The position numbers and the translations under genes were made by a program. A stretch of 64,000 bases of DNA from Escherichia phage BUCT632. Positions 18,893 through 24,648 of this stretch are shown here, in pieces. The stretch lies in the sequence record PQ488502.1; one strand, given 5' to 3'. A model generated the notes under the pieces. It did no database searches, was not told where the DNA came from, and saw only the letters and a program-made list of their open reading frames with translations. Position 1 is the stretch's first letter. The number at the start of each line of letters is the position of its first letter.

Positions 18893-19347
18893 AAAGAATG
18901 AAGGCAGCTTTGCTTTTAGTAGCTGCCCTTACCTTCAGCTTTAGTAGTCAGGCATCGCACGATGCAAAAGAAATAGATTGCATTGCTAAAAATATCTATT
19001 TCGAGAGTCGTGGTGAGGGCATAAAGGGAATGACGGCGATTGCACATGTTACTAAAAACCGTGTAAACTCCGGTAAATTCCCAGATTCCTACTGTAAAGT
19101 AGTATATCAGTCTAACCAGTTCTCTTGGGTATCTAAGAGACCAAAAGTTGATAAAACCGATGAGGCTTGGCAAACAGCCAAGAATTTAGCTAGAGTGATA
19201 TACTACGTTGATTTACCACAAGATCCTACACATGGAGCACTATACTTCCATAGTGGTAAAGATAAACCTTATTGGACAAAGAAGTTTAAGAAAACAACTA
19301 AGATTAAGGGACATACGTTTTATAAACCTGTTGTCACTAAAACTTAA
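18880..19347 (+). CDS. secreted SleB-like cell-wall hydrolase family protein
   Basis: signal peptide MKAALLLVAALTFSFSSQA; motif NIYFESRGEG...AIAHVTKNRV typical of SleB/Hydrolase_2 family. Confidence 0.55.
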   Translation: MAGVKRMKAALLLVAALTFSFSSQASHDAKEIDCIAKNIYFESRGEGIKGMTAIAHVTKNRVNSGKFPDSYCKVVYQSNQFSWVSKRPKVDKTDEAWQTAKNLARVIYYVDLPQDPTHGALYFHSGKDKPYWTKKFKKTTKIKGHTFYKPVVTKT

Positions 19348-19355
19348 AAATTTAC

Positions 19356-19384
19356 TTGCTTAAATACTTAAATTTCTGTATAAT
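19356..19384 (+). promoter_or_regulatory. T5-type early promoter cassette
   Basis: TTGCTT-17-TATAAT. Confidence 0.6.
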
Positions 19385-19415
19385 ACTTCCATAAACTAAT
19401 GAGAGGAAGCGAAAT

Positions 19416-19586
19416 ATGAAATCAGTTGTAATTATTGGTGTTAACACTCGCGGTATTCGTACTACGAAAACTGTTAAAACATCTAACGTGGCTGAAATTA
19501 CTACTAACCCTAAAAAGTTTGATTTCGCCAAAGTCTCGGCAGTTATGACAGAACAATCTTTTAACCAAGCGTTAGGAATGAAATAA
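19416..19586 (+). CDS. hypothetical small protein
   Basis: 56 aa ORF (below ORF-track cutoff) with GAGAGGAAG RBS. Confidence 0.4.
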   Translation: MKSVVIIGVNTRGIRTTKTVKTSNVAEITTNPKKFDFAKVSAVMTEQSFNQALGMK

Positions 19587-20029
19587 TGGAAGAGAATATT
19601 TTAGATGTTTTGCGTAGAGCTTTGCAGGATTCTAAGTTTAATGGTTCTGATAAAGAAGTCGCTAAAAGCTACCAGACCATAATCGGGGATCTTCAGCGTA
19701 TTGATAAAGATTTCATCACTTCTGAACAATTTGTGTCTTATCTCAAAGCTCAACTAAAAAGCATTAACCAGATGAAAGCTAAACTTCATGGTCGAGATCT
19801 TGATAGCTATAGCTTACAGTCTGCTCAGTATGAATACATTCTAAATAAGTGGTTGCAGGAGTATCTGCCTCCTCAGTTATCTGATACTGAGATTCGTAAA
19901 TACTTTGCAGAATTAGTTAAGCTAAACCCTGGAATTACAAAGGGTATGCTGATGAAAGCGATTAAGGAAGAATTTCCTGGGCGTTATGATGGTGGTACTG
20001 CTGCTCAGATTGCTGGCGAATTTAATTAA
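19586..20029 (+). CDS. hypothetical protein
   Basis: 147 aa ORF, ATAATG overlap. Confidence 0.55.
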   Translation: MEENILDVLRRALQDSKFNGSDKEVAKSYQTIIGDLQRIDKDFITSEQFVSYLKAQLKSINQMKAKLHGRDLDSYSLQSAQYEYILNKWLQEYLPPQLSDTEIRKYFAELVKLNPGITKGMLMKAIKEEFPGRYDGGTAAQIAGEFN

Positions 20030-20037
20030 AAATTCAT

Positions 20038-20066
20038 TTGCTAAATGCTTATAAATTCTGTATAAT
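20038..20066 (+). promoter_or_regulatory. T5-type early promoter cassette
   Basis: AAAAATTCATTTGCTA..17..TATAAT; reads into ~900 nt without a plus-strand ORF. Confidence 0.6.
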
Positions 20067-20289
20067 ATATTCATAAATTAGGGAACAGCGAGCCGATTAC
20101 GCTGAGTGCAGAATCCCAACCGGAGCGCATTGAATAGAGTCGGTGGGTTAGTTGTAAAACTAGTACACAGGGGGCGGCAATCCCGGTTAGTGGCTAGAAC
20201 GTGTAAAATGAGGCGTCTGAAACCTCTCCCCTAAACTCTTCTCTAATTTATAAATAGTGGGGTGTGGAAATCACTTATGTAGTAACACT

Positions 20290-20361
20290 GCCGTCCTAGT
20301 ATAATTGGTATTATCAAGCCGTAACTGGTGGAAGATGTAGGTTCGAATCCTACGGTCGGTA
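20290..20361 (+). ncRNA. tRNA-like element (aberrant anticodon arm)
   Basis: perfect T arm GTAGG-TTCGAAT-CCTAC, D arm with AATTGGTA loop, acceptor with one mismatch; no canonical anticodon stem. Confidence 0.35.
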
Positions 20362-20863
20362 AGAACTGGATAACTGATGCTTTTAACGTAAAAGCTTCCG
20401 AGGTTAGTTGCGCACTGCCTAAACCACGCGGTAGTTGGTTCCAGACTAACCAACCAGTCTGCTGAATAGTTTTATTACGATTTAACTATGTCCAGGCTAA
20501 AGAAGAACTTTAGAAGGTATTCTAGGATAGTGAAGTTCTTTCTCCATATCGGAGTAGTTTTTCAAGCTATCCACAAAGTGGGAAATGCTGACATGAGAGA
20601 TGTCACTAATGGTGCACAATAGCACAGGTAATTCGCGATAACTCCTGTTGAGTAGCAGCAAAAGGCGGGAAGTCATGACCCCAAGCCTAACCGAGTCCTC
20701 AATATACCGCAGGATATAACCACTAAGTCACCCTGACTTAAACTGGAAAATAATAGACGTTACCGTATTTTGTCTTGAAATACTTAATGAGTGAGACTTA
20801 TGACTCTCCCGGTATCGTCTGTATTTTTAAGAGTTTTTACGAGAGTTCTTAAAAATACTTAAA

Positions 20864-20935
20864 CGGGGTGTAGTCTAAGGGAGAGGCAGGAGTCTTCTAA
20901 ATTCCTTTATGCAGGTTCGAATCCTGTCACCTCGG
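20864..20935 (+). tRNA. tRNA-Arg(TCT)
   Basis: manual cloverleaf: acceptor CGGGGTG/CACCTCG, anticodon loop CTTCTAA, T-loop TTCGAAT, CCA encoded. Confidence 0.8.
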
Positions 20936-20972
20936 CCAATTTTATTAACTGTAACTAAAACAAAGGAAACAT

Positions 20973-21920
20973 ATGTTTAATACTAAAAATATGAAAGAAC
21001 TGACTTCTGAGCAGAAAGTAATTCGTACTATTAAACGTTGGGGTATTGGTGCTGTAGTTGGTTTAGCAGGCTTGATTCTAGCTTTTAATTCATATACTAT
21101 TGTTTCTGATGGTACGGTTAAAACCCAAACATTCCTGGGTAAAGTAGATCCTAATCCAGTATTGCCTGGTTTCCATCTTGTAAATCCGTTTGCATCTTTC
21201 GATACTTTTAGTACAAAAGATATTGCTGTAAAATTAGATAAACTTCAGGTTCCTAGCCAGGATAAGTTTAAATCCACTGTTGACCTGACTGTTATGTTGC
21301 AGTTTGATGGTTCTAAGGCACCGATTAACCGTATTAACGCAGGTACTCAGGATCAGGCACTAGACAAGTATGTAACTGAAAAATTATTGTCTACTATTCG
21401 TGAGTTTGGTAAGTCTGTACCTAAAGCACAAGATTTGTTTGATGCTAAAATTCAGGCTCAATTACAAACTGCAATTCAACAGGAAGTTGAAGAGTATGCA
21501 CGCCCATATGGTTACACAGTTAAGCAGGTGTTCCTTCAGGATATTACTCTGCCACCAGTAATCATGGAGCAGGTACAGAATACCAAAGTTCGTGAAGAGC
21601 AAGTTAATGCTGCGAAAGCTGAACTGGCTCGTGTTGAACAGGAAGCACAGCAGAAGGTTAAACAAGCAGAAGCAGATCGTGAAGCTCGTAATAACCAAGC
21701 TATTGCTAATGAACGTGACGCAGATGCTAAACTGTATGCAGCTAAGAAAGAAGCTGAAGCTAACGCCGCACTGCAACGTACCATTACTCCTGAGATGATT
21801 CGTTGGAAACAACTGGAAGTTGAAATGATTCGTGCTCAGAAATATCAAGGTGGTGTACCGCAGACTGTGGTTGGCACTGGCTATGATGGCCAAATGATTA
21901 TGGATATGCGTAATAAATAA
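20973..21920 (+). CDS. SPFH/band-7 (prohibitin-like) domain membrane protein
   Basis: N-terminal TM helix then SPFH-like region and long Ala/Gln/Glu-rich coiled coil. Confidence 0.65.
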   Translation: MFNTKNMKELTSEQKVIRTIKRWGIGAVVGLAGLILAFNSYTIVSDGTVKTQTFLGKVDPNPVLPGFHLVNPFASFDTFSTKDIAVKLDKLQVPSQDKFKSTVDLTVMLQFDGSKAPINRINAGTQDQALDKYVTEKLLSTIREFGKSVPKAQDLFDAKIQAQLQTAIQQEVEEYARPYGYTVKQVFLQDITLPPVIMEQVQNTKVREEQVNAAKAELARVEQEAQQKVKQAEADREARNNQAIANERDADAKLYAAKKEAEANAALQRTITPEMIRWKQLEVEMIRAQKYQGGVPQTVVGTGYDGQMIMDMRNK

Positions 21921-21945
21921 TACCCGCATGTAACATCTGAAGTAA

Positions 21946-21979
21946 GCCCTGCGTTCCCTGGAGAGCGCAGGGTTTTTCT
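21946..21979 (+). terminator. rho-independent terminator
   Basis: CCCTGCG...CGCAGGG hairpin plus TTTTT. Confidence 0.6.
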
Positions 21980-21998
21980 GTATTTAAGATAAAAGAAA

Positions 21999-22032
21999 AG
22001 CCCCTAAGTCTTTCGACTAGGGGCTTTATTGT
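21999..22032. terminator. bidirectional terminator between convergent genes
   Basis: GCCCCTAAG...CTAGGGGC hairpin with flanking A/T runs. Confidence 0.5.
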
Positions 22033-22244
22033 TTGGTTCTTTAGAACCATATACTCTTATTACAGCAACCACCCATACGGGAGGCCAATCTTGACTGAAA
22101 ATCTACTCTAGGGGGCAGGATAAGAGTAGGCTTAAAGGCAAACGGATTGAACGCCGGTATTTGCGTAAACATTGCTGGAGAGCAACAACGTGCTACAGGC
22201 ATTGGGCAGCACGAAACAGATTTTCTGCAACACATAATTCCTCC

Positions 22245-22661
22245 TTAGGAGTTATTACCACCATTTTGAGCTTTTGCAACTTGGCTTTGGCAGAAGCTAT
22301 TAAACTTACCCATAAGTGATACAAGCTGTTTCCCATCCTCTGTCTTTGCGAAGTCTTCGAAAAGGGCTAGTACTGCCTGTCCTTCCGCAGAAACCTGCGA
22401 TTGTTGGGTTTGTTGCTGAACTTGCTGCTGCGGCACCTGTTGCTGCATTTGTTGAGGCATTTGCGACTGCCCGCTCATTTGCTGCATCATTTGTATAGGA
22501 CTCACACTTCCAGGGTTTTGCTGGAGTTGTTGCTGCATCTGTTGCGCTTCTGCTAAACGCTGTTGCAATTGTTGTAAGTAGGGGTTATCCAGACCCGGAA
22601 TGGGCTGCTGGGAGCCCATACTTTGATTAAGTCCGTTATTTACAAAACCATATTTACTCAT
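22245..22661 (-). CDS. Gln-rich low-complexity protein
   Basis: 138 aa, >30% Q, repetitive QQ(M/L)QQ tracts. Confidence 0.5.
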   Translation of the reverse strand: MSKYGFVNNGLNQSMGSQQPIPGLDNPYLQQLQQRLAEAQQMQQQLQQNPGSVSPIQMMQQMSGQSQMPQQMQQQVPQQQVQQQTQQSQVSAEGQAVLALFEDFAKTEDGKQLVSLMGKFNSFCQSQVAKAQNGGNNS

Positions 22662-22682
22662 AATGGGCTCCTCCCCTTAATA

Positions 22683-23732
22683 TTAAGCCGGCAGTTTAGC
22701 CTGCAGACCAGCCAGAGTCTGAGTGATAGCACCAAGACTTAAAGCGATTTGATTAATTACCTGACCGTTAGCACCGCTACCTGCAGCGATTGCTTCACGT
22801 AGGCGACATGCATCTAACTCATCCTGGATACGCGCAGTAGTTACACCAGCGATCGCAGTCTGAAGTTCACAGCAACATTCAGCGATCTGACGTTCCAGAG
22901 AGTTCTGGTTAGCACACATCTGAGCCTGAACAGCGGCAAACTGGTTATTAGTTTGTAAAGTCTGCTGGAAAGCGATCTGTGCAGAATCAAACTTATCTTG
23001 TGCACGAGCTATCTGGTTAGCTGCGAAAGATTGATCAATCTGGCGAGAAAGATCGAACTGACCCTGAATAACGTTGCGAGTTTCCTGGCAGATCTGATTA
23101 GATAGATTAGCACCTGTACCATAGATCGTAGTTAGTACAGACTGAGTATCACGGCTCTGGTTTTGGGATGTCTGGCTAAAACCATTGTTAACTGCGCTTA
23201 AAACAGCTCCAGTACCCTGGTTAGCTTCTGTACGAGTAGTGTTAATAGCTGCTAGAATACTAGCGGTATCTTGGTTCTGAAGTACTGCATCAACTGCGGT
23301 ACCTTCACCAACTACACCACGTCCACCGAATCCACCGAAACCACCGAATCCGCCTGTTAATAGAGCACCGATTAGGATAGCTCCGAATAGTCCCATACCT
23401 TCACCACCGAAAGCACCTGCGTTTGCTGGGTAACCACCCAGTAGGCCAGGGAAGCCACTAGTGAATACGTTTACTGGTTCTTGCATTTTATGTTTTCCAT
23501 ATTTATGACAATGTTCATCATCATCTTCTTCATCATCTTCATCGTGTTCGCGATGTTTCTCTTCGTAGGCTCTGACCTTCTCCCACTTTTTCTTATCTGA
23601 TTCCTCGTGACGGTGCAGTTCTGCTGCAACGCTAGCGACGGTCTCAGGACTCTTAGCTACTTCTTCTGTCATTTTTTGACACCTCCTAGTATATAGAAAA
23701 TGTGTGTCTCTTTGATCACTCATCCATAACAT
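22683..23732 (-). CDS. hypothetical protein with acidic tract and glycine-zipper segment
   Basis: DEDDEEDDDE tract, GGFGGFGGFGG hydrophobic Gly-rich segment, Q/N/A-rich C-terminal half; true start may be an internal Met. Confidence 0.5.
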   Translation of the reverse strand: MLWMSDQRDTHFLYTRRCQKMTEEVAKSPETVASVAAELHRHEESDKKKWEKVRAYEEKHREHDEDDEEDDDEHCHKYGKHKMQEPVNVFTSGFPGLLGGYPANAGAFGGEGMGLFGAILIGALLTGGFGGFGGFGGRGVVGEGTAVDAVLQNQDTASILAAINTTRTEANQGTGAVLSAVNNGFSQTSQNQSRDTQSVLTTIYGTGANLSNQICQETRNVIQGQFDLSRQIDQSFAANQIARAQDKFDSAQIAFQQTLQTNNQFAAVQAQMCANQNSLERQIAECCCELQTAIAGVTTARIQDELDACRLREAIAAGSGANGQVINQIALSLGAITQTLAGLQAKLPA

Positions 23733-23879
23733 ATACTTTACACTACCCCAGCGAAAATGTCAAGGGGTCTTTAAAAATTGCCCCCGGATTTTTAGTGGGG
23801 TCACAAATTTTGGTCCTCACCACTTATCTGCTACCCTTAAGTGCCCTATGATTTTCCTCTAAAAAGTTAAAAAATTTGA

Positions 23880-23908
23880 TTGCTTGAATGCTAAATTCTC
23901 TGTATAAT
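23880..23908 (+). promoter_or_regulatory. T5-type early promoter cassette (PN25-like)
   Basis: AAAAAATTTGATTGCTT..17..TATAAT..ATAAATTTGAGAGAGGA closely resembles T5 PN25 (from memory). Confidence 0.7.
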
Positions 23909-23938
23909 ATATCTATAAATTTGAGAGAGGAACCAAAT

Positions 23939-24457
23939 ATGAATGTTGATGAGCTAACACAGCACCTCTTATCTAGAGGATTTGATACAGATAAATATCA
24001 TTGCTGGTTAAGTCCGGAAGGGTGGCTAACAGTCCCGTTGTATGATTTCTCTGGAATGTTGAGGGGCTATCAAACTTATAATCCTTCTGCTCCAAAAGGT
24101 CATGGTAAGTGCCCATTTGAAGCTAAATACTTTACTTATTCTACTACACAGTGTGTATGGGGACTAGAAACTCTCAATGGAGATGAAAAAGTAGTATTGA
24201 TCGCTGAATCTGTATTTAAGGCAGTTGCGTTACATAATGCGGGTTATCCAGCCCTGGCAATGTTGGGTTCTTCTCCAGGAAAAGCGTTATTAAAGCAACT
24301 GAAATTACTACCTTTTAAATTGGTAGCTGTTGGAGACAATGATCCCGATGGTGAAAAATTTGCTAGACAATTAAATGGATTTGTTTCTCCTGTAGATGTA
24401 GATGAGATGTCTACCGAAAACTTGAAAAATTTTCTTGCTATGAAGCTAAATTTCTAA
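23939..24457 (+). CDS. hypothetical protein
   Basis: ORF starting MNVDELTQ after RBS of promoter cassette. Confidence 0.55.
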   Translation: MNVDELTQHLLSRGFDTDKYHCWLSPEGWLTVPLYDFSGMLRGYQTYNPSAPKGHGKCPFEAKYFTYSTTQCVWGLETLNGDEKVVLIAESVFKAVALHNAGYPALAMLGSSPGKALLKQLKLLPFKLVAVGDNDPDGEKFARQLNGFVSPVDVDEMSTENLKNFLAMKLNF

Positions 24458-24573: not shown

Positions 24574-24648
24574 GGTTCTCAAGCTCATATGGTATGAGCA
24601 CCCGGCTCATAACCGGAAGGTACGTAGGTTCGAATCCTCGGGGAGCCA
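24574..24648 (+). tRNA. tRNA-Met(CAT), initiator-like
   Basis: anticodon loop CTCATAA; three G:C pairs next to loop; weak T stem; CCA encoded. Confidence 0.65.

What the first reader, a model, noticed from the sequence alone, without database searches (positions are those of the whole stretch)
20973..23732. SPFH/band-7 membrane protein convergent with Gln-rich and glycine-zipper proteins inside the tRNA island
A 315-aa SPFH-like protein (TM helix plus coiled coil) is transcribed toward two minus-strand genes: a 138-aa protein with >30% Gln and a 349-aa protein with an acidic tract and GGFGGFGGFGG segment. These are the only minus-strand genes in a ~40 kb plus-strand region and share a bidirectional terminator. 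This suggests a distinct membrane-targeting module, possibly an acquired moron.
Basis: partly seen in the sequence, partly recalled or inferred. Interest (0 to 1): 0.45.

Follow-up and report, generated by a model that had tools for sequence, protein, structure and literature searches.

The report
T5 accessory membrane genes, two units

Summary
The ORFs are real. The window is a T5-like phage and the locus equals T5.077-T5.080, already annotated in T5 RefSeq with promoter P12 and an "efficient bidirectional terminator".

Corrections:
- Gln is 27.5%, not above 30%.
- The 349-aa ORF really starts at Met21 (329 aa).
- A third minus-strand gene was missed: 64 aa, four CC pairs, 22041-22235, equal to T5.079.

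SPFH and the minus-strand genes are not one module. SPFH homologs occur in 725 phage records, including T4-like phages at 72-78% identity. The cassette occurs in about 221. The cassette recurs with the same A-B-C gene order, without an adjacent SPFH, in N4-like, lambdoid and other phages. An Epseptimavirus has it cleanly deleted, leaving a scar.

Protein A is a glycine-zipper membrane anchor plus a predicted helix of about 190 residues carrying an invariant CCC. It belongs to a large family absent from Pfam, NCBIfam and the PDB.

Published data: all four genes are "Not Fit" in a T5 knockdown screen. The A and B genes lie in the deletable "anti-defence island" next to the anti-retron gene rad, and a clone of A+B without C showed no anti-retron activity.

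Function is unknown. My best guess is a membrane-anchored Cys-linked complex used in phage-host or phage-phage conflict. Interest is moderate.

The parts
20973..21920 (+). SPFH/Band-7 membrane protein gene (T5.080 homolog), 315 aa. It has an N-terminal TM anchor and no cysteine, so it is not a lipoprotein despite that common label.
   Evidence: ORF. Pfam Band_7 at 2e-17, above the cut-off. PDB sequence hits to QmcA and prohibitins. TM at residues 20-45, K+R-rich N-flank and zero Cys. T5.080 in RefSeq.
21944..21975 (+). GC-rich hairpin plus T-run: the terminator of the SPFH gene. It also contains the T5 nick consensus GA|GCGCA at 21963-21969.
   Evidence: Terminator scan. Sequence. T5 annotations of the 32.6% major nick at the equivalent position.
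21996..22030 (.). Second hairpin, with T-runs on both strands: a bidirectional terminator that ends the minus-strand cassette 14 nt after its last stop codon.
   Evidence: Sequence. Conserved with flipped or compensatory stems in 21 loci. T5 RefSeq calls it an 'efficient bidirectional rho-independent transcription terminator'.
22041..22235 (-). Gene C (T5.079 homolog): 64-aa basic protein with N-terminal MCC, four CC pairs and an NPF motif.
   Evidence: RBS TAAGGAGGAATT-ATG. Intact in all 22 copies; pN/pS is 0.40 in frame against 0.87 and 1.30 out of frame. 221 records at 89-100% aa identity. Homologous small gene at the same position in all seven other sequenced contexts (L003, L004, L005, L006, L026, L038, L039). 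Annotated as T5.079.
22245..22661 (-). Gene B (T5.078 homolog): 138-aa soluble protein. It has a conserved N-terminal helix, a variable Gln/Pro-rich linker, and a conserved C-terminal domain LFE.F..T..GKQL....KF..FCQ.
   Evidence: ORF. Gln 27.5%. Alignments A3 and A7. PHROG 7894. No kinase domain.
22683..23672 (-). Gene A (T5.077 homolog): 329 aa. It has an N-terminal helix, an acidic/His tract, a glycine-zipper TM segment (about 92-117), and a single predicted helix of about 190 residues with invariant C253 and CCC266-268.
   Evidence: Start site. Alignment A1. AF2 with the deep alignment gives pLDDT 75.6 and helix 136-325. TM and flank charges. CCC superfamily.
23735..23763 (-). Sigma-70-like promoter of the cassette (TTGACA-17-TAAAGT), equivalent to T5 early promoter P12/T5P21.
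   Evidence: Promoter scan, 10/12 match. T5 annotations.

Best explanation
The locus consists of two independent accessory units of a T5-like phage placed tail to tail, not one module.

Unit 1 is a stand-alone SPFH/Band-7 membrane scaffold gene (T5.080). It has one N-terminal TM helix, and its SPFH domain is probably on the periplasmic side, as in HflK/C. Phages of different families have exchanged it horizontally.

Unit 2 is a self-contained early operon: promoter P12, genes A, B and C (T5.077, T5.078, T5.079), then a bidirectional terminator. It behaves as a mobile moron-like cassette.

Inferred mechanism for unit 2:
- Protein A is anchored in the inner membrane by a glycine-zipper segment. 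It projects an amphipathic helical rod of about 190 residues (about 28 nm) into the cytoplasm.
- The rod oligomerises and is locked, or made able to bind metal, at its invariant Cys-Cys-Cys ring.
- It recruits the two signal-less partners: B through its conserved helical ends, and the small basic Cys-rich protein C. The result is a thiol-linked membrane complex.
- The complex is not needed for replication, assembly or lysis. It most likely acts in conflict, either superinfection exclusion or evasion of a host defence system. This would fit its position in the deletable 'anti-defence island' next to the anti-retron gene rad.

Shown: gene structure, co-conservation, mobility, dispensability, family membership of SPFH, and the predicted architecture of A.

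Inferred: topology, oligomerisation, the A-B-C complex, and the conflict role.
For: Identity and signals:
- The window is 97.9% identical to Tequintavirus genomes.
- T5 RefSeq annotates T5.077-080, promoter P12 and the bidirectional terminator.

Independence of the two units:
- SPFH is in 725 phage records, including Slopekvirus and Karamvirus-type T4-like phages at 72-78% identity. The cassette is in 221-222 records.
- Bobsandoy has SPFH but not the cassette, and keeps a remnant of about 30 nt of gene C.

Cassette unity:
- The A-B-C order, with gaps of 0-10 nt between B and C, is seen in T5-likes, distant T5-likes (L005, L006), an N4-like phage (L003), a roughly 62-kb phage with Mu-like head genes (L004), a lambdoid phage (L038) and L039.
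- None of these has SPFH adjacent.

Gene C is coding.

Architecture of A:
- TM-grade segment.
- The motif of D/E before the TM and R after it across the superfamily gives 63 C-in against 5 N-in.
- Helix 136-325 has pLDDT above 90 over about residues 170-290.
- Hydrophobic periodicity of 3.6 residues, p about 0.004.
- CCC is invariant in 75 aligned members and present in 101 of 131 collected.
- B and C have no hydrophobic segment.

Dispensability and context:
- T5.077-080 are all 'Not Fit' in CRISPRi-ART (PMC11879866 supplementary file 16).
- Fragment F9 of the roughly 8-kb deletable region of T5/SP15 is exactly genes A+B (primers match window 23642-23672 and 22245-22276).
- Rad is the adjacent gene.
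- T5 and L038 have complete lysis gene sets elsewhere.
Against: - No experiment shows localisation, complex formation, metal binding or any phenotype for the cassette.
- F9 (A+B) did not rescue deletion phages from retrons Eco2, Eco7 or Ec83. That is negative evidence for one class of anti-defence activity, although the clone lacked gene C.
- For T5.077 itself the N-terminal tail is 91 residues long with 12 basic residues (my manual count, not a tool result). That makes N-out translocation awkward, so the topology could be N-in or a re-entrant hairpin.
- If the rod is cytoplasmic, disulfides are unlikely. If it is periplasmic, B and C could not reach it. The role of the Cys is therefore unresolved.
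- The elevated GC is mostly an effect of amino-acid composition (GC3 of A is 0.33, against a genome value of 0.32 +/- 0.045). Composition therefore gives little support for foreign origin.
- The deletion scar shows loss in one lineage rather than gain in T5.
- The AF2 model is a monomer with pTM 0.32.
Confidence: 0.55

Rival explanations
1. One reading: SPFH and the minus-strand proteins are one functional membrane-targeting module. For example, the SPFH scaffold would organise or protect the glycine-zipper protein.
For: - They are adjacent and convergent and share a terminator region in about 216 T5-like records.
- Both SPFH and A have TM segments.
- In distant T5-likes the same convergent slot holds other membrane proteins. 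That could mean a membrane partner is needed.
Against: - Their distributions are independent.
- T4-like phages have SPFH without the cassette.
- N4-like, lambdoid and other phages have the cassette with no SPFH within 6 kb.
- Bobsandoy keeps SPFH after losing the cassette.
- In two families the SPFH gene pairs instead with a NadR-like gene.
Confidence: 0.1
2. The cassette is an anti-defence operon. For example, it could be the unmapped anti-AVAST type 2 determinant of the T5 island, acting at the membrane or by sequestering a defence effector.
For: - It lies inside the roughly 8-kb deletable region called the Anti-Defense Island, directly beside rad. T5n, which lacks the island, loses plating efficiency on AVAST 2 with no gene yet assigned.
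- It is expressed from an early promoter.
- It is accessory and mobile among phages.
Against: - F9 (A+B) gave no protection against three retrons.
- There is no PADLOC or other family hit.
- Membrane-anchored structural-looking proteins are atypical for known anti-defence proteins.
- In the lambdoid context the cassette is oriented like a lysogen-expressed moron, which suits exclusion or defence better than anti-defence.
Confidence: 0.2
3. The cassette handles a soft metal (Cu, Zn, Cd or Hg-type thiolate chemistry). C would be a metallothionein-like peptide, A a membrane protein with a Cys3 site and a His/Asp/Glu-rich tract, and B an adaptor.
For: - C is 12.5% Cys, with CC, CxCxC and GCGC motifs at its termini across families.
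- CCC is invariant in A.
- His-rich acidic tracts (HHHHHEH...) occur in Epseptimavirus-type A proteins.
- The predicted cytoplasmic location favours metal-thiolate chemistry over disulfides.
Against: - The His/acidic tract is absent from distant members.
- There is no similarity to any known metal transporter or metallothionein family.
- No metal-related genes are nearby.
- No obvious benefit to a lytic phage is known.
Confidence: 0.1
4. The cassette is an auxiliary lysis or lysis-timing device. A would be holin-, antiholin- or i-spanin-like (TM plus a long helical domain with Cys), and C a Pro-rich partner like an o-spanin.
For: - A has a single TM and a long helical domain with conserved Cys. 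C is small and Pro-rich.
- In the lambdoid L038 the cassette abuts the holin-lysozyme-Rz genes.
Against: - T5 has its own holin, endolysin and Rz-like spanins (T5.040, 041, 044, 045). L038 has a full lysis set.
- C has no signal peptide or lipobox.
- The flank-charge rule predicts a cytoplasmic rod.
- The promoter is early.
- Knockdown has no fitness effect.
- In L038 the cassette is on the strand opposite to the lysis genes.
Confidence: 0.05

Closest known systems
Bacterial and organellar SPFH proteins (HflK/HflC, QmcA, prohibitins; Pfam PF01145 Band_7)
   Same: T5.080 matches Band_7 above the Pfam cut-off. Its best solved-structure sequence matches are QmcA (E=1.8e-6) and prohibitin-2. It has the typical layout of an N-terminal TM anchor, an SPFH domain and an Ala/Glu/Lys/Gln-rich C-terminal helix.
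   Different: It is phage-encoded and an orphan: there is no NfeD or HflC-type partner gene next to it. It is only distantly related to cellular members. No link to FtsH has been shown. It is often mislabelled 'lipoprotein' although it has no Cys.
Morons of tailed phages (autonomous accessory transcription units such as lambda bor/lom or HK97 gp15)
   Same: - The minus-strand cassette has its own promoter and terminator.
- It lies against the flow of about 43 kb of flanking genes.
- It is present or absent among close relatives at one site, and it is dispensable.
- In a lambdoid phage it sits in the classic moron slot between Q and the lysis genes.
   Different: - Here it sits in a virulent phage and is expressed from an early promoter.
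- The composition difference is mostly due to amino-acid bias.
- The one informative comparison shows loss, not gain.
- It has three co-conserved genes, four in other phages, rather than one.
Phage superinfection-exclusion membrane proteins (T4 Imm/Sp, P22 SieA, HK97 gp15). This comparison rests on my own knowledge, not on a test here.
   Same: They are early or lysogen-expressed, non-essential, inner-membrane-anchored accessory proteins with a patchy distribution.
   Different: There is no sequence or structural similarity. Those proteins are small and lack a 190-residue helix, Cys clusters and soluble partners. No exclusion phenotype has been tested for T5.077-079.
i-spanin/o-spanin pairs (lambda Rz/Rz1)
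   Same: They combine a TM anchor with a long helical domain whose conserved Cys are used for covalent oligomerisation, plus a small Pro-rich partner.
   Different: C lacks a lipoprotein signal. The predicted topology is the opposite. T5 has separate Rz-like spanins. Expression is early and there is no lysis role in the fitness screen.
PHROG families 8119, 7894, 9288 and 16490 (unknown function)
   Same: A matches PHROG 8119 (E=6e-205) and B matches PHROG 7894 (E=2e-79). Remote CCC-module proteins hit 8119, 9288 and 16490.
   Different: These are clustering labels without function. The link between them (a shared CCC module) and the three-gene cassette is not recorded there. T5.079 is a 'singleton' in the published re-annotation.

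Membership tests
SPFH / Band 7 (Pfam PF01145) | Significant match to the SPFH domain profile | tested here: met
   Band_7 at E=2e-17, 64.2 bits against a cut-off of 23.6, residues 52-225. phmmer hits to QmcA 8z5g and prohibitins.
SPFH / Band 7 (Pfam PF01145) | N-terminal membrane anchor followed by the SPFH domain and a C-terminal helical (coiled-coil) region | tested here: met
   The hydrophobic segment at 20-45 has KD 1.79. The C-terminal region aligns to the helical part of QmcA and prohibitin, query 42-266/268. No structure model was made for this protein.
SPFH / Band 7 (Pfam PF01145) | Assembly into large rings or cages, and functional coupling to a protease (FtsH) or an NfeD partner | not testable with these tools
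   No NfeD-like gene is adjacent: the neighbours are tRNA-Arg and the cassette, and none has such a Pfam hit. Oligomerisation and FtsH coupling need experiments.
Bacterial lipoprotein (label given to T5.080 and PHROG 200) | Signal peptide ending in a lipobox with an invariant Cys | tested here: not met
   The 315-aa protein contains no cysteine at all.
cAMP-dependent protein kinase catalytic subunit (label 'kapc' given to T5.078) | Protein kinase catalytic domain | tested here: not met
   There is no Pkinase hit in Pfam or NCBIfam, only sub-threshold low-complexity matches. The protein is 138 aa and Gln-rich.
Moron (autonomous accessory transcription unit) | Own promoter and own terminator flanking the gene(s) | tested here: met
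   A TTGACA-17-TAAAGT promoter at 23763-23735(-), and a hairpin with a T-run 14 nt after the last stop. T5 annotates promoter P12 and the bidirectional terminator.
Moron (autonomous accessory transcription unit) | Present or absent among otherwise collinear relatives at the same site | tested here: met
   Bobsandoy is collinear up to window 22072 and from 23829 on, and lacks the 1.76 kb between. About 221 of about 431 T5-like records carry the cassette.
Moron (autonomous accessory transcription unit) | Nucleotide composition distinct from the host phage | tested here: inconclusive
   GC is 0.46 against 0.39. GC3 of A is 0.33, within the genome range of 0.32 +/- 0.045. B (0.44) and C (0.42) are mildly high.
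Spanin pair (i-spanin + o-spanin) | The o-spanin is an outer-membrane lipoprotein with a signal peptide and lipobox. The i-spanin has an N-in TM with a periplasmic coiled coil. | tested here: not met
   C starts MCC with no hydrophobic core (maximum KD 0.85). Flank charges predict that A's helix is cytoplasmic. T5 has separate Rz-like spanins.
Glycine-zipper membrane proteins (Pfam Gly-zipper families) | Profile match to a described Gly-zipper family. Sequence motif of repeated GxxxG / GxxG in a hydrophobic segment. | tested here: inconclusive
   The motif is visibly present (GMGLFGAILIGALLTGGFGGFGGFGG), but no Pfam or NCBIfam family is matched.
'CCC-module' superfamily (undescribed; defined here) | Long helical domain containing ..Q(L/I)A(E/D)CCC(E)(L/I/V)K.. 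followed by R(L/I)RD(E/A)L, usually after a D/E-[Gly-zipper TM]-R anchor | tested here: met
   A profile of A1 finds 108 representatives among 1.84 billion proteins. 101 of 131 collected proteins carry CCC. It is invariant in the 75-sequence alignment.
T5 'Anti-Defense Island' / tRNA-rich deletable region (Azam et al.) | Lies within the roughly 8-kb region missing in T5n/SP15m, and has anti-defence activity | tested here: inconclusive
   Location is met: the F9 primers map exactly to genes A+B. Activity: the papers report rescue only by F6, F7 and F8, and F9 lacked gene C.

The most novel reading that the evidence does not exclude
The A-B-C cassette is a new kind of phage conflict module. In non-T5 phages it also carries a divergent Zn-ribbon gene of about 50 aa. 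It would work in superinfection exclusion or counter-defence and be built on a membrane-anchored helical rod of about 28 nm. The rod's invariant Cys-Cys-Cys ring, together with a metallothionein-like peptide, would form a metal- or disulfide-locked assembly. The CCC module would define a large, undescribed protein superfamily spread across many phage families and possibly into viruses of eukaryotes.
Probability: 0.25. Interest if true: 0.65.

Novelty: new member of a known kind. Interest (0 to 1): 0.4.

Why it matters
- **Annotation clean-up in a model phage.** It corrects several propagated misannotations: 'lipoprotein', 'cAMP-dependent protein kinase', the over-long 349-aa start, and a conserved 64-aa gene missing from most records.
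- **A gap in a published experiment.** The one published functional test of these genes (fragment F9 of the T5/SP15 anti-defence island) omitted the third co-conserved gene. The negative result therefore does not test the complete unit. An unmapped anti-AVAST2 activity remains in that island.
- **An undescribed protein family.** A superfamily with an invariant triple-cysteine motif has no Pfam, NCBIfam or PDB representative. Here it is given a conserved gene neighbourhood and a predicted architecture, which makes it experimentally approachable in T5, a tractable model.

Tried and rejected
- **Family libraries.** Pfam, NCBIfam, PADLOC and PDB sequence searches of A, B and C found no family.
- **Structure prediction.** The first AF2 run, with an 18-sequence alignment, gave pLDDT 50 and was unusable. 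A 75-sequence alignment gave a confident single long helix.
- **Fold searches.** Foldseek against the PDB and BFVD gave only insignificant rod-like hits (vimentin, E>=0.76), so fold comparison cannot assign a function.
- **Foreign GC as evidence of acquisition.** Largely rejected after the GC3 analysis.
- **Lysis-cassette reading.** Rejected because T5 and the lambdoid relative have full lysis gene sets, the promoter is early, and there is no fitness effect.
- **Literature searches.** Searches for T5 with SPFH and for the locus tags in main texts found nothing directly on these genes. The useful data were in supplementary tables.
- **Context of remote CCC-module proteins.** It was mostly uninformative because the contigs are short. 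The hint of eukaryotic-virus members (a weak, sub-threshold mRNA-capping-domain match in P0055, and an A32-like ATPase next to P0038) is left as a lead only.
- **Named relatives.** Searches with the CCC module (A4) and with the B alignment (A7) returned only unnamed or 'hypothetical' proteins.


Full report
**What is there.**
The window is a T5-like (Tequintavirus) genome. The region 20800-23950 is 97.9% identical to Salmonella phage 8sent1748 and Escherichia phage JLBYU40, and it matches 461 phage records.

In T5's curated RefSeq record the locus is already annotated:
- T5.080 ('lipoprotein', the SPFH gene).
- A 'major DNA single-chain interruption'.
- An 'efficient bidirectional rho-independent transcription terminator'.
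- T5.079, T5.078 and T5.077 (all hypothetical).
- Promoter P12.

From T5.018 to T5.098, about 43 kb, these three are the only CDSs on the opposite strand. The strand observation is therefore right.

**Corrections to the observation.**
- Gln is 38/138 = 27.5% of the 138-aa protein. The poly-Q stretch is a linker that is long only in T5 proper and short in relatives.
- The 349-aa ORF is over-extended. The true start is its Met21 (window 23672, 329 aa). Five lines of evidence agree:
  - An AGGAGG RBS lies upstream of Met21 and none lies upstream of the longer start.
  - The PHROG 8119 profile begins at residue 21.
  - T5 and Lindwurm annotate the short form.
  - The only promoter-like site (TTGACA-17-TAAAGT, 23763-23735) would start transcription inside the extension.
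  - A published cloning primer begins at this ATG.
- A third minus-strand gene was missed, at 22041-22235(-). It encodes 64 aa, MCCRKSVSCCPMPVARCCSP...GGCCNKSIWF, with four CC pairs and a net basic charge.
  - It starts 9 nt after the Gln-rich gene's stop, behind TAAGGAGGAATT, and ends 14 nt before a GC-rich hairpin.
  - It is intact in all 22 copies examined (14 distinct DNA variants).
  - Variable sites are 5/6/12 at codon positions 1/2/3. pN/pS is 0.40 in frame, against 0.87 and 1.30 in the shifted frames.
  - It is 89-100% conserved at the protein level in 221 records but unannotated in most.
  - It equals T5.079.

**The SPFH gene.**
- The 315-aa protein matches Pfam Band_7 well above threshold. 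By sequence its closest solved structures are QmcA and the prohibitins.
- It has one N-terminal TM segment with a strongly basic N-flank (6 K/R in 22 residues). By the positive-inside rule this places the SPFH domain on the periplasmic side, as in HflK/C. This is an inference.
- It has no cysteine, so the widespread 'lipoprotein' label is wrong.
- Homologs occur in 725 phage records, including T4-like Klebsiella, Enterobacter, Cronobacter and Citrobacter phages at 72-78% identity. That is a clear sign of horizontal exchange between unrelated phage families.
- In both an Epseptimavirus (bobsandoy) and a Slopekvirus (PMBT1), the gene downstream of SPFH is a NadR-like nucleotidyltransferase, not the cassette.

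**The minus-strand genes are a separate, mobile three-gene cassette.**
- tblastn finds protein A in 222 phage records and C in 221. That is about half of the roughly 431 T5-like records with an SPFH at 90% identity or more. The database contains GenBank/RefSeq duplicates, so this is approximate.
- In 5.8 billion proteins, A has only 26 clusters, all on phage-sized contigs.
- The distant members are in quite different phages:
  - An N4-like phage with a virion RNA polymerase (L003).
  - A roughly 62-kb phage with Mu-like head genes, related to Pseudomonas phage RSP (L004).
  - Two distant T5-like contigs (L005, L006).
  - A lambdoid phage in which the cassette lies on the opposite strand between the Q antiterminator and the holin-lysozyme-Rz genes (L038).
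  - A further phage (L039).

- In every one the order is A, then a B homolog, then a small C homolog. C starts 0-10 nt after B, and in the N4-like phage it overlaps B's end.
- B keeps an N-terminal helix (L..L...L..Q..Q.Q) and a C-terminal domain (E....LF..F..T..GKQL....KF..FCQ).
- C keeps an N-terminal MCC (or MCGCGC / MSCNCGC), a second CC, an NPF motif, and often a C-terminal GGCC or GCGC.
- None of these contexts has an SPFH gene next to the cassette.
- The four non-T5 contexts also share a divergently transcribed Zn-ribbon gene of about 50 aa with a basic tail, immediately upstream of A. It is absent from the window and from all T5-like loci.

**Gain or loss.**
Comparison with bobsandoy shows collinearity through SPFH, both hairpins and the last ~30 nt of gene C (up to window 22072). 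Collinearity then resumes at 23829, in the promoter element upstream of rad. The 1.76 kb in between, the cassette, is missing there, and a remnant of gene C's 3' end is left behind. That is a deletion scar, so in that lineage the cassette was lost.

The elevated GC of the cassette (0.46 against 0.39) is mainly due to Gly, Ala and Gln codons. GC3 of A is 0.33, against 0.32 +/- 0.045 for 34 other ORFs. B and C are mildly higher.

**Architecture of protein A and its superfamily.**
- Alignment of 18 family members shows the following, in order:
  - A conserved N-terminal helix.
  - A variable acidic/His-rich tract.
  - An MQEPVNVF motif.
  - A glycine-zipper hydrophobic segment.
  - A long Q/N/A-rich region with invariant C253 and CCC266-268.
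  - A near-invariant C-terminal GQVINQIA.SLG.ITQ.LA.LQ.
- An exhaustive profile search of 1.84 billion representatives found 5 core-family representatives (E<1e-30) and about 100 remote ones.
- 101 of the 131 proteins collected carry CCC within a recognisable module: F(A)A(I/L)QL(E/Q)A.KN...L..Q(L/I)AECCCE(L/I/V)KE.I ... R(L/I)RD(A/E)L.
- None matches Pfam, NCBIfam or the PDB. The only matches are PHROGs of unknown function.
- With a 75-sequence alignment, AlphaFold2 predicts residues 136-325 as one continuous helix (pLDDT above 90 for about residues 170-290; mean 75.6; pTM 0.32, as expected for a rod). An 18-sequence alignment had given an unusable model.
- Fold searches return only insignificant rod-like matches.
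- The helix has significant hydrophobic periodicity of 3.6 residues.
- Across the superfamily the TM segment is bounded by D/E on its N side and Arg on its C side. The tally is 63 C-in, 5 N-in and 21 ties, and summed K+R is 41 against 110. The positive-inside rule therefore places the long helix in the cytoplasm.
- B and C have no hydrophobic segment or signal peptide. All three proteins would then share one compartment.
- This topology is an inference. For T5.077 itself the 91-residue N-tail, with 12 basic residues by my manual count, makes it less certain.

**Experimental data from the literature.**
- In the transcriptome-wide CRISPRi-ART screen of T5 (Adler et al., Nat Microbiol 2025, PMC11879866, supplementary file 16), T5.077, T5.078, T5.079 and T5.080 are all 'Not Fit'. 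The neighbour T5.076 is 'Semi-Fit' and is annotated there as anti-retron.
- Azam et al. (bioRxiv 10.1101/2023.03.15.532788; Nat Commun 2024, PMC11555353) describe a spontaneous deletion of about 8 kb in T5n and SP15m. They call the region an Anti-Defense Island or tRNA-rich region, and cloned it as nine fragments.
- Fragment 8 carries ORF75 = rad, which is window 23888-24457.
- The primers for fragment 9 match window 23642-23672(-) and 22245-22276(+) exactly. F9 is therefore genes A+B, without gene C, which is unannotated in SP15.
- Only F6, F7 and F8 rescued phages from retrons.
- T5n also plates less well on AVAST type 2, and no gene has been assigned to that effect.

**Interpretation.**
The evidence supports two independent accessory units placed tail to tail. 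These are a horizontally exchanged SPFH scaffold gene and a moron-like, mobile A-B-C operon of an undescribed family.

My preferred mechanism for the cassette is as follows. The steps are inferred, not shown:
- A is anchored in the membrane and projects an amphipathic rod.
- The rod oligomerises at its Cys3 ring.
- It binds B and the basic, metallothionein-like C.
- The complex acts in conflict, either exclusion of other phages or evasion of a host defence.

A lysis role is unlikely. T5 has a holin, an endolysin and Rz-like spanins elsewhere, and the lambdoid relative has a full lysis set beside the cassette. The promoter is early, and knockdown is neutral.

**Verdict.**
The 'single membrane module' idea is not supported, while 'accessory moron' is supported for the minus-strand genes.

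The genes have been in public annotation for two decades, so this is not a discovery of a new locus. What is new is threefold:
- The cassette's unity and mobility.
- The missed third gene in most records, and in the only functional test.
- The CCC superfamily.

Interest is moderate (0.4).

Noticed in passing
window 21963-21969 (within hairpin 21944-21975): The sequence GA|GCGCA matches the T5 nick consensus (NPu pGCGCN). It maps to T5's annotated major single-strand interruption at 32.6% of the genome. The nick site therefore sits inside the SPFH gene's terminator hairpin.
   Followed up: partly
window 23888-24457 (+): This Toprim ORF is T5.076 = Rad, the published anti-retron protein. The first 17 codons of the 189-aa form overlap a repeated early-promoter element (TTGCTT-17-TATAAT, also seen near 19340-19420 and 20026-20082). 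T5 RefSeq uses a 172-aa start, which would be window 23939.
   Followed up: partly
window 24574-24648 (+) and 20290-20361 (+): Rfam tRNA hits (40.3 and 35.5 bits) that ARAGORN did not call. The first is at the position of T5 tRNA-Ile2(CAU). The second lies inside the ORF-free stretch that T5 annotates as 'RNAX, stable RNA with unknown functions' (about window 20145-20863).
   Followed up: no
L003 5756-5911(-), L004 5746-5892(-), L038 5744-5917(-), L039 5759-5914(-): A conserved Zn-ribbon protein of about 50 aa with a basic tail (CxxCG..CPECG.WF..R.DQ.YC.P.CR.RK.RR.KK) is transcribed divergently from directly upstream of gene A in all four non-T5 cassettes. It is absent from the window and from T5-like loci. 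It may be a dedicated regulator or a fourth component.
   Followed up: partly
L007 (Salmonella phage bobsandoy) 5560-5712 vs window 22040-22072 and 23829-23942: Bobsandoy retains about 30 nt of the 3' end of gene C next to the terminator. It then joins directly to the rad-type promoter element, which there drives NadR-like and PnuC-like genes. This is a deletion scar plus alternative cargo at the same slot.
   Followed up: yes
L007 4501-6764 and L008 2986-5138: The SPFH gene is followed by a NadR-like nucleotidyltransferase (cytidylyltransferase) gene both in an Epseptimavirus and in a T4-like Slopekvirus. This suggests that the pair travels together between phage families.
   Followed up: no
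L005 7571-9204(-), L006 7573-9206(-): In distant T5-like contigs the position convergent with the cassette is occupied by a conserved pair of membrane proteins (190 aa with an N-terminal TM; 353 aa with TMs at both ends). They have no Pfam match, and they sit where SPFH sits in T5.
   Followed up: partly
proteins P0055, P0063, P0066, P0038 (remote CCC-module relatives); L030, L031: Some remote CCC-module proteins are large, with apolipoprotein-like amphipathic repeats or an Arg/Ser-rich tail. One gives a weak, sub-threshold match to an mRNA-capping-enzyme domain, and one lies next to an A32-like packaging ATPase. This hints at members in eukaryotic or membrane-containing viruses, but the contigs are too short to tell.
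   Followed up: partly
L029 1796-2281, L035 8133-8603: In two unrelated phage contigs a DUF7841 protein lies a few genes downstream of a short CCC-module protein. In L035 the CCC protein, its neighbour and the DUF7841 protein all end in Cys-rich tails (GCGCNA, CGCSSVL, VVCC).
   Followed up: no
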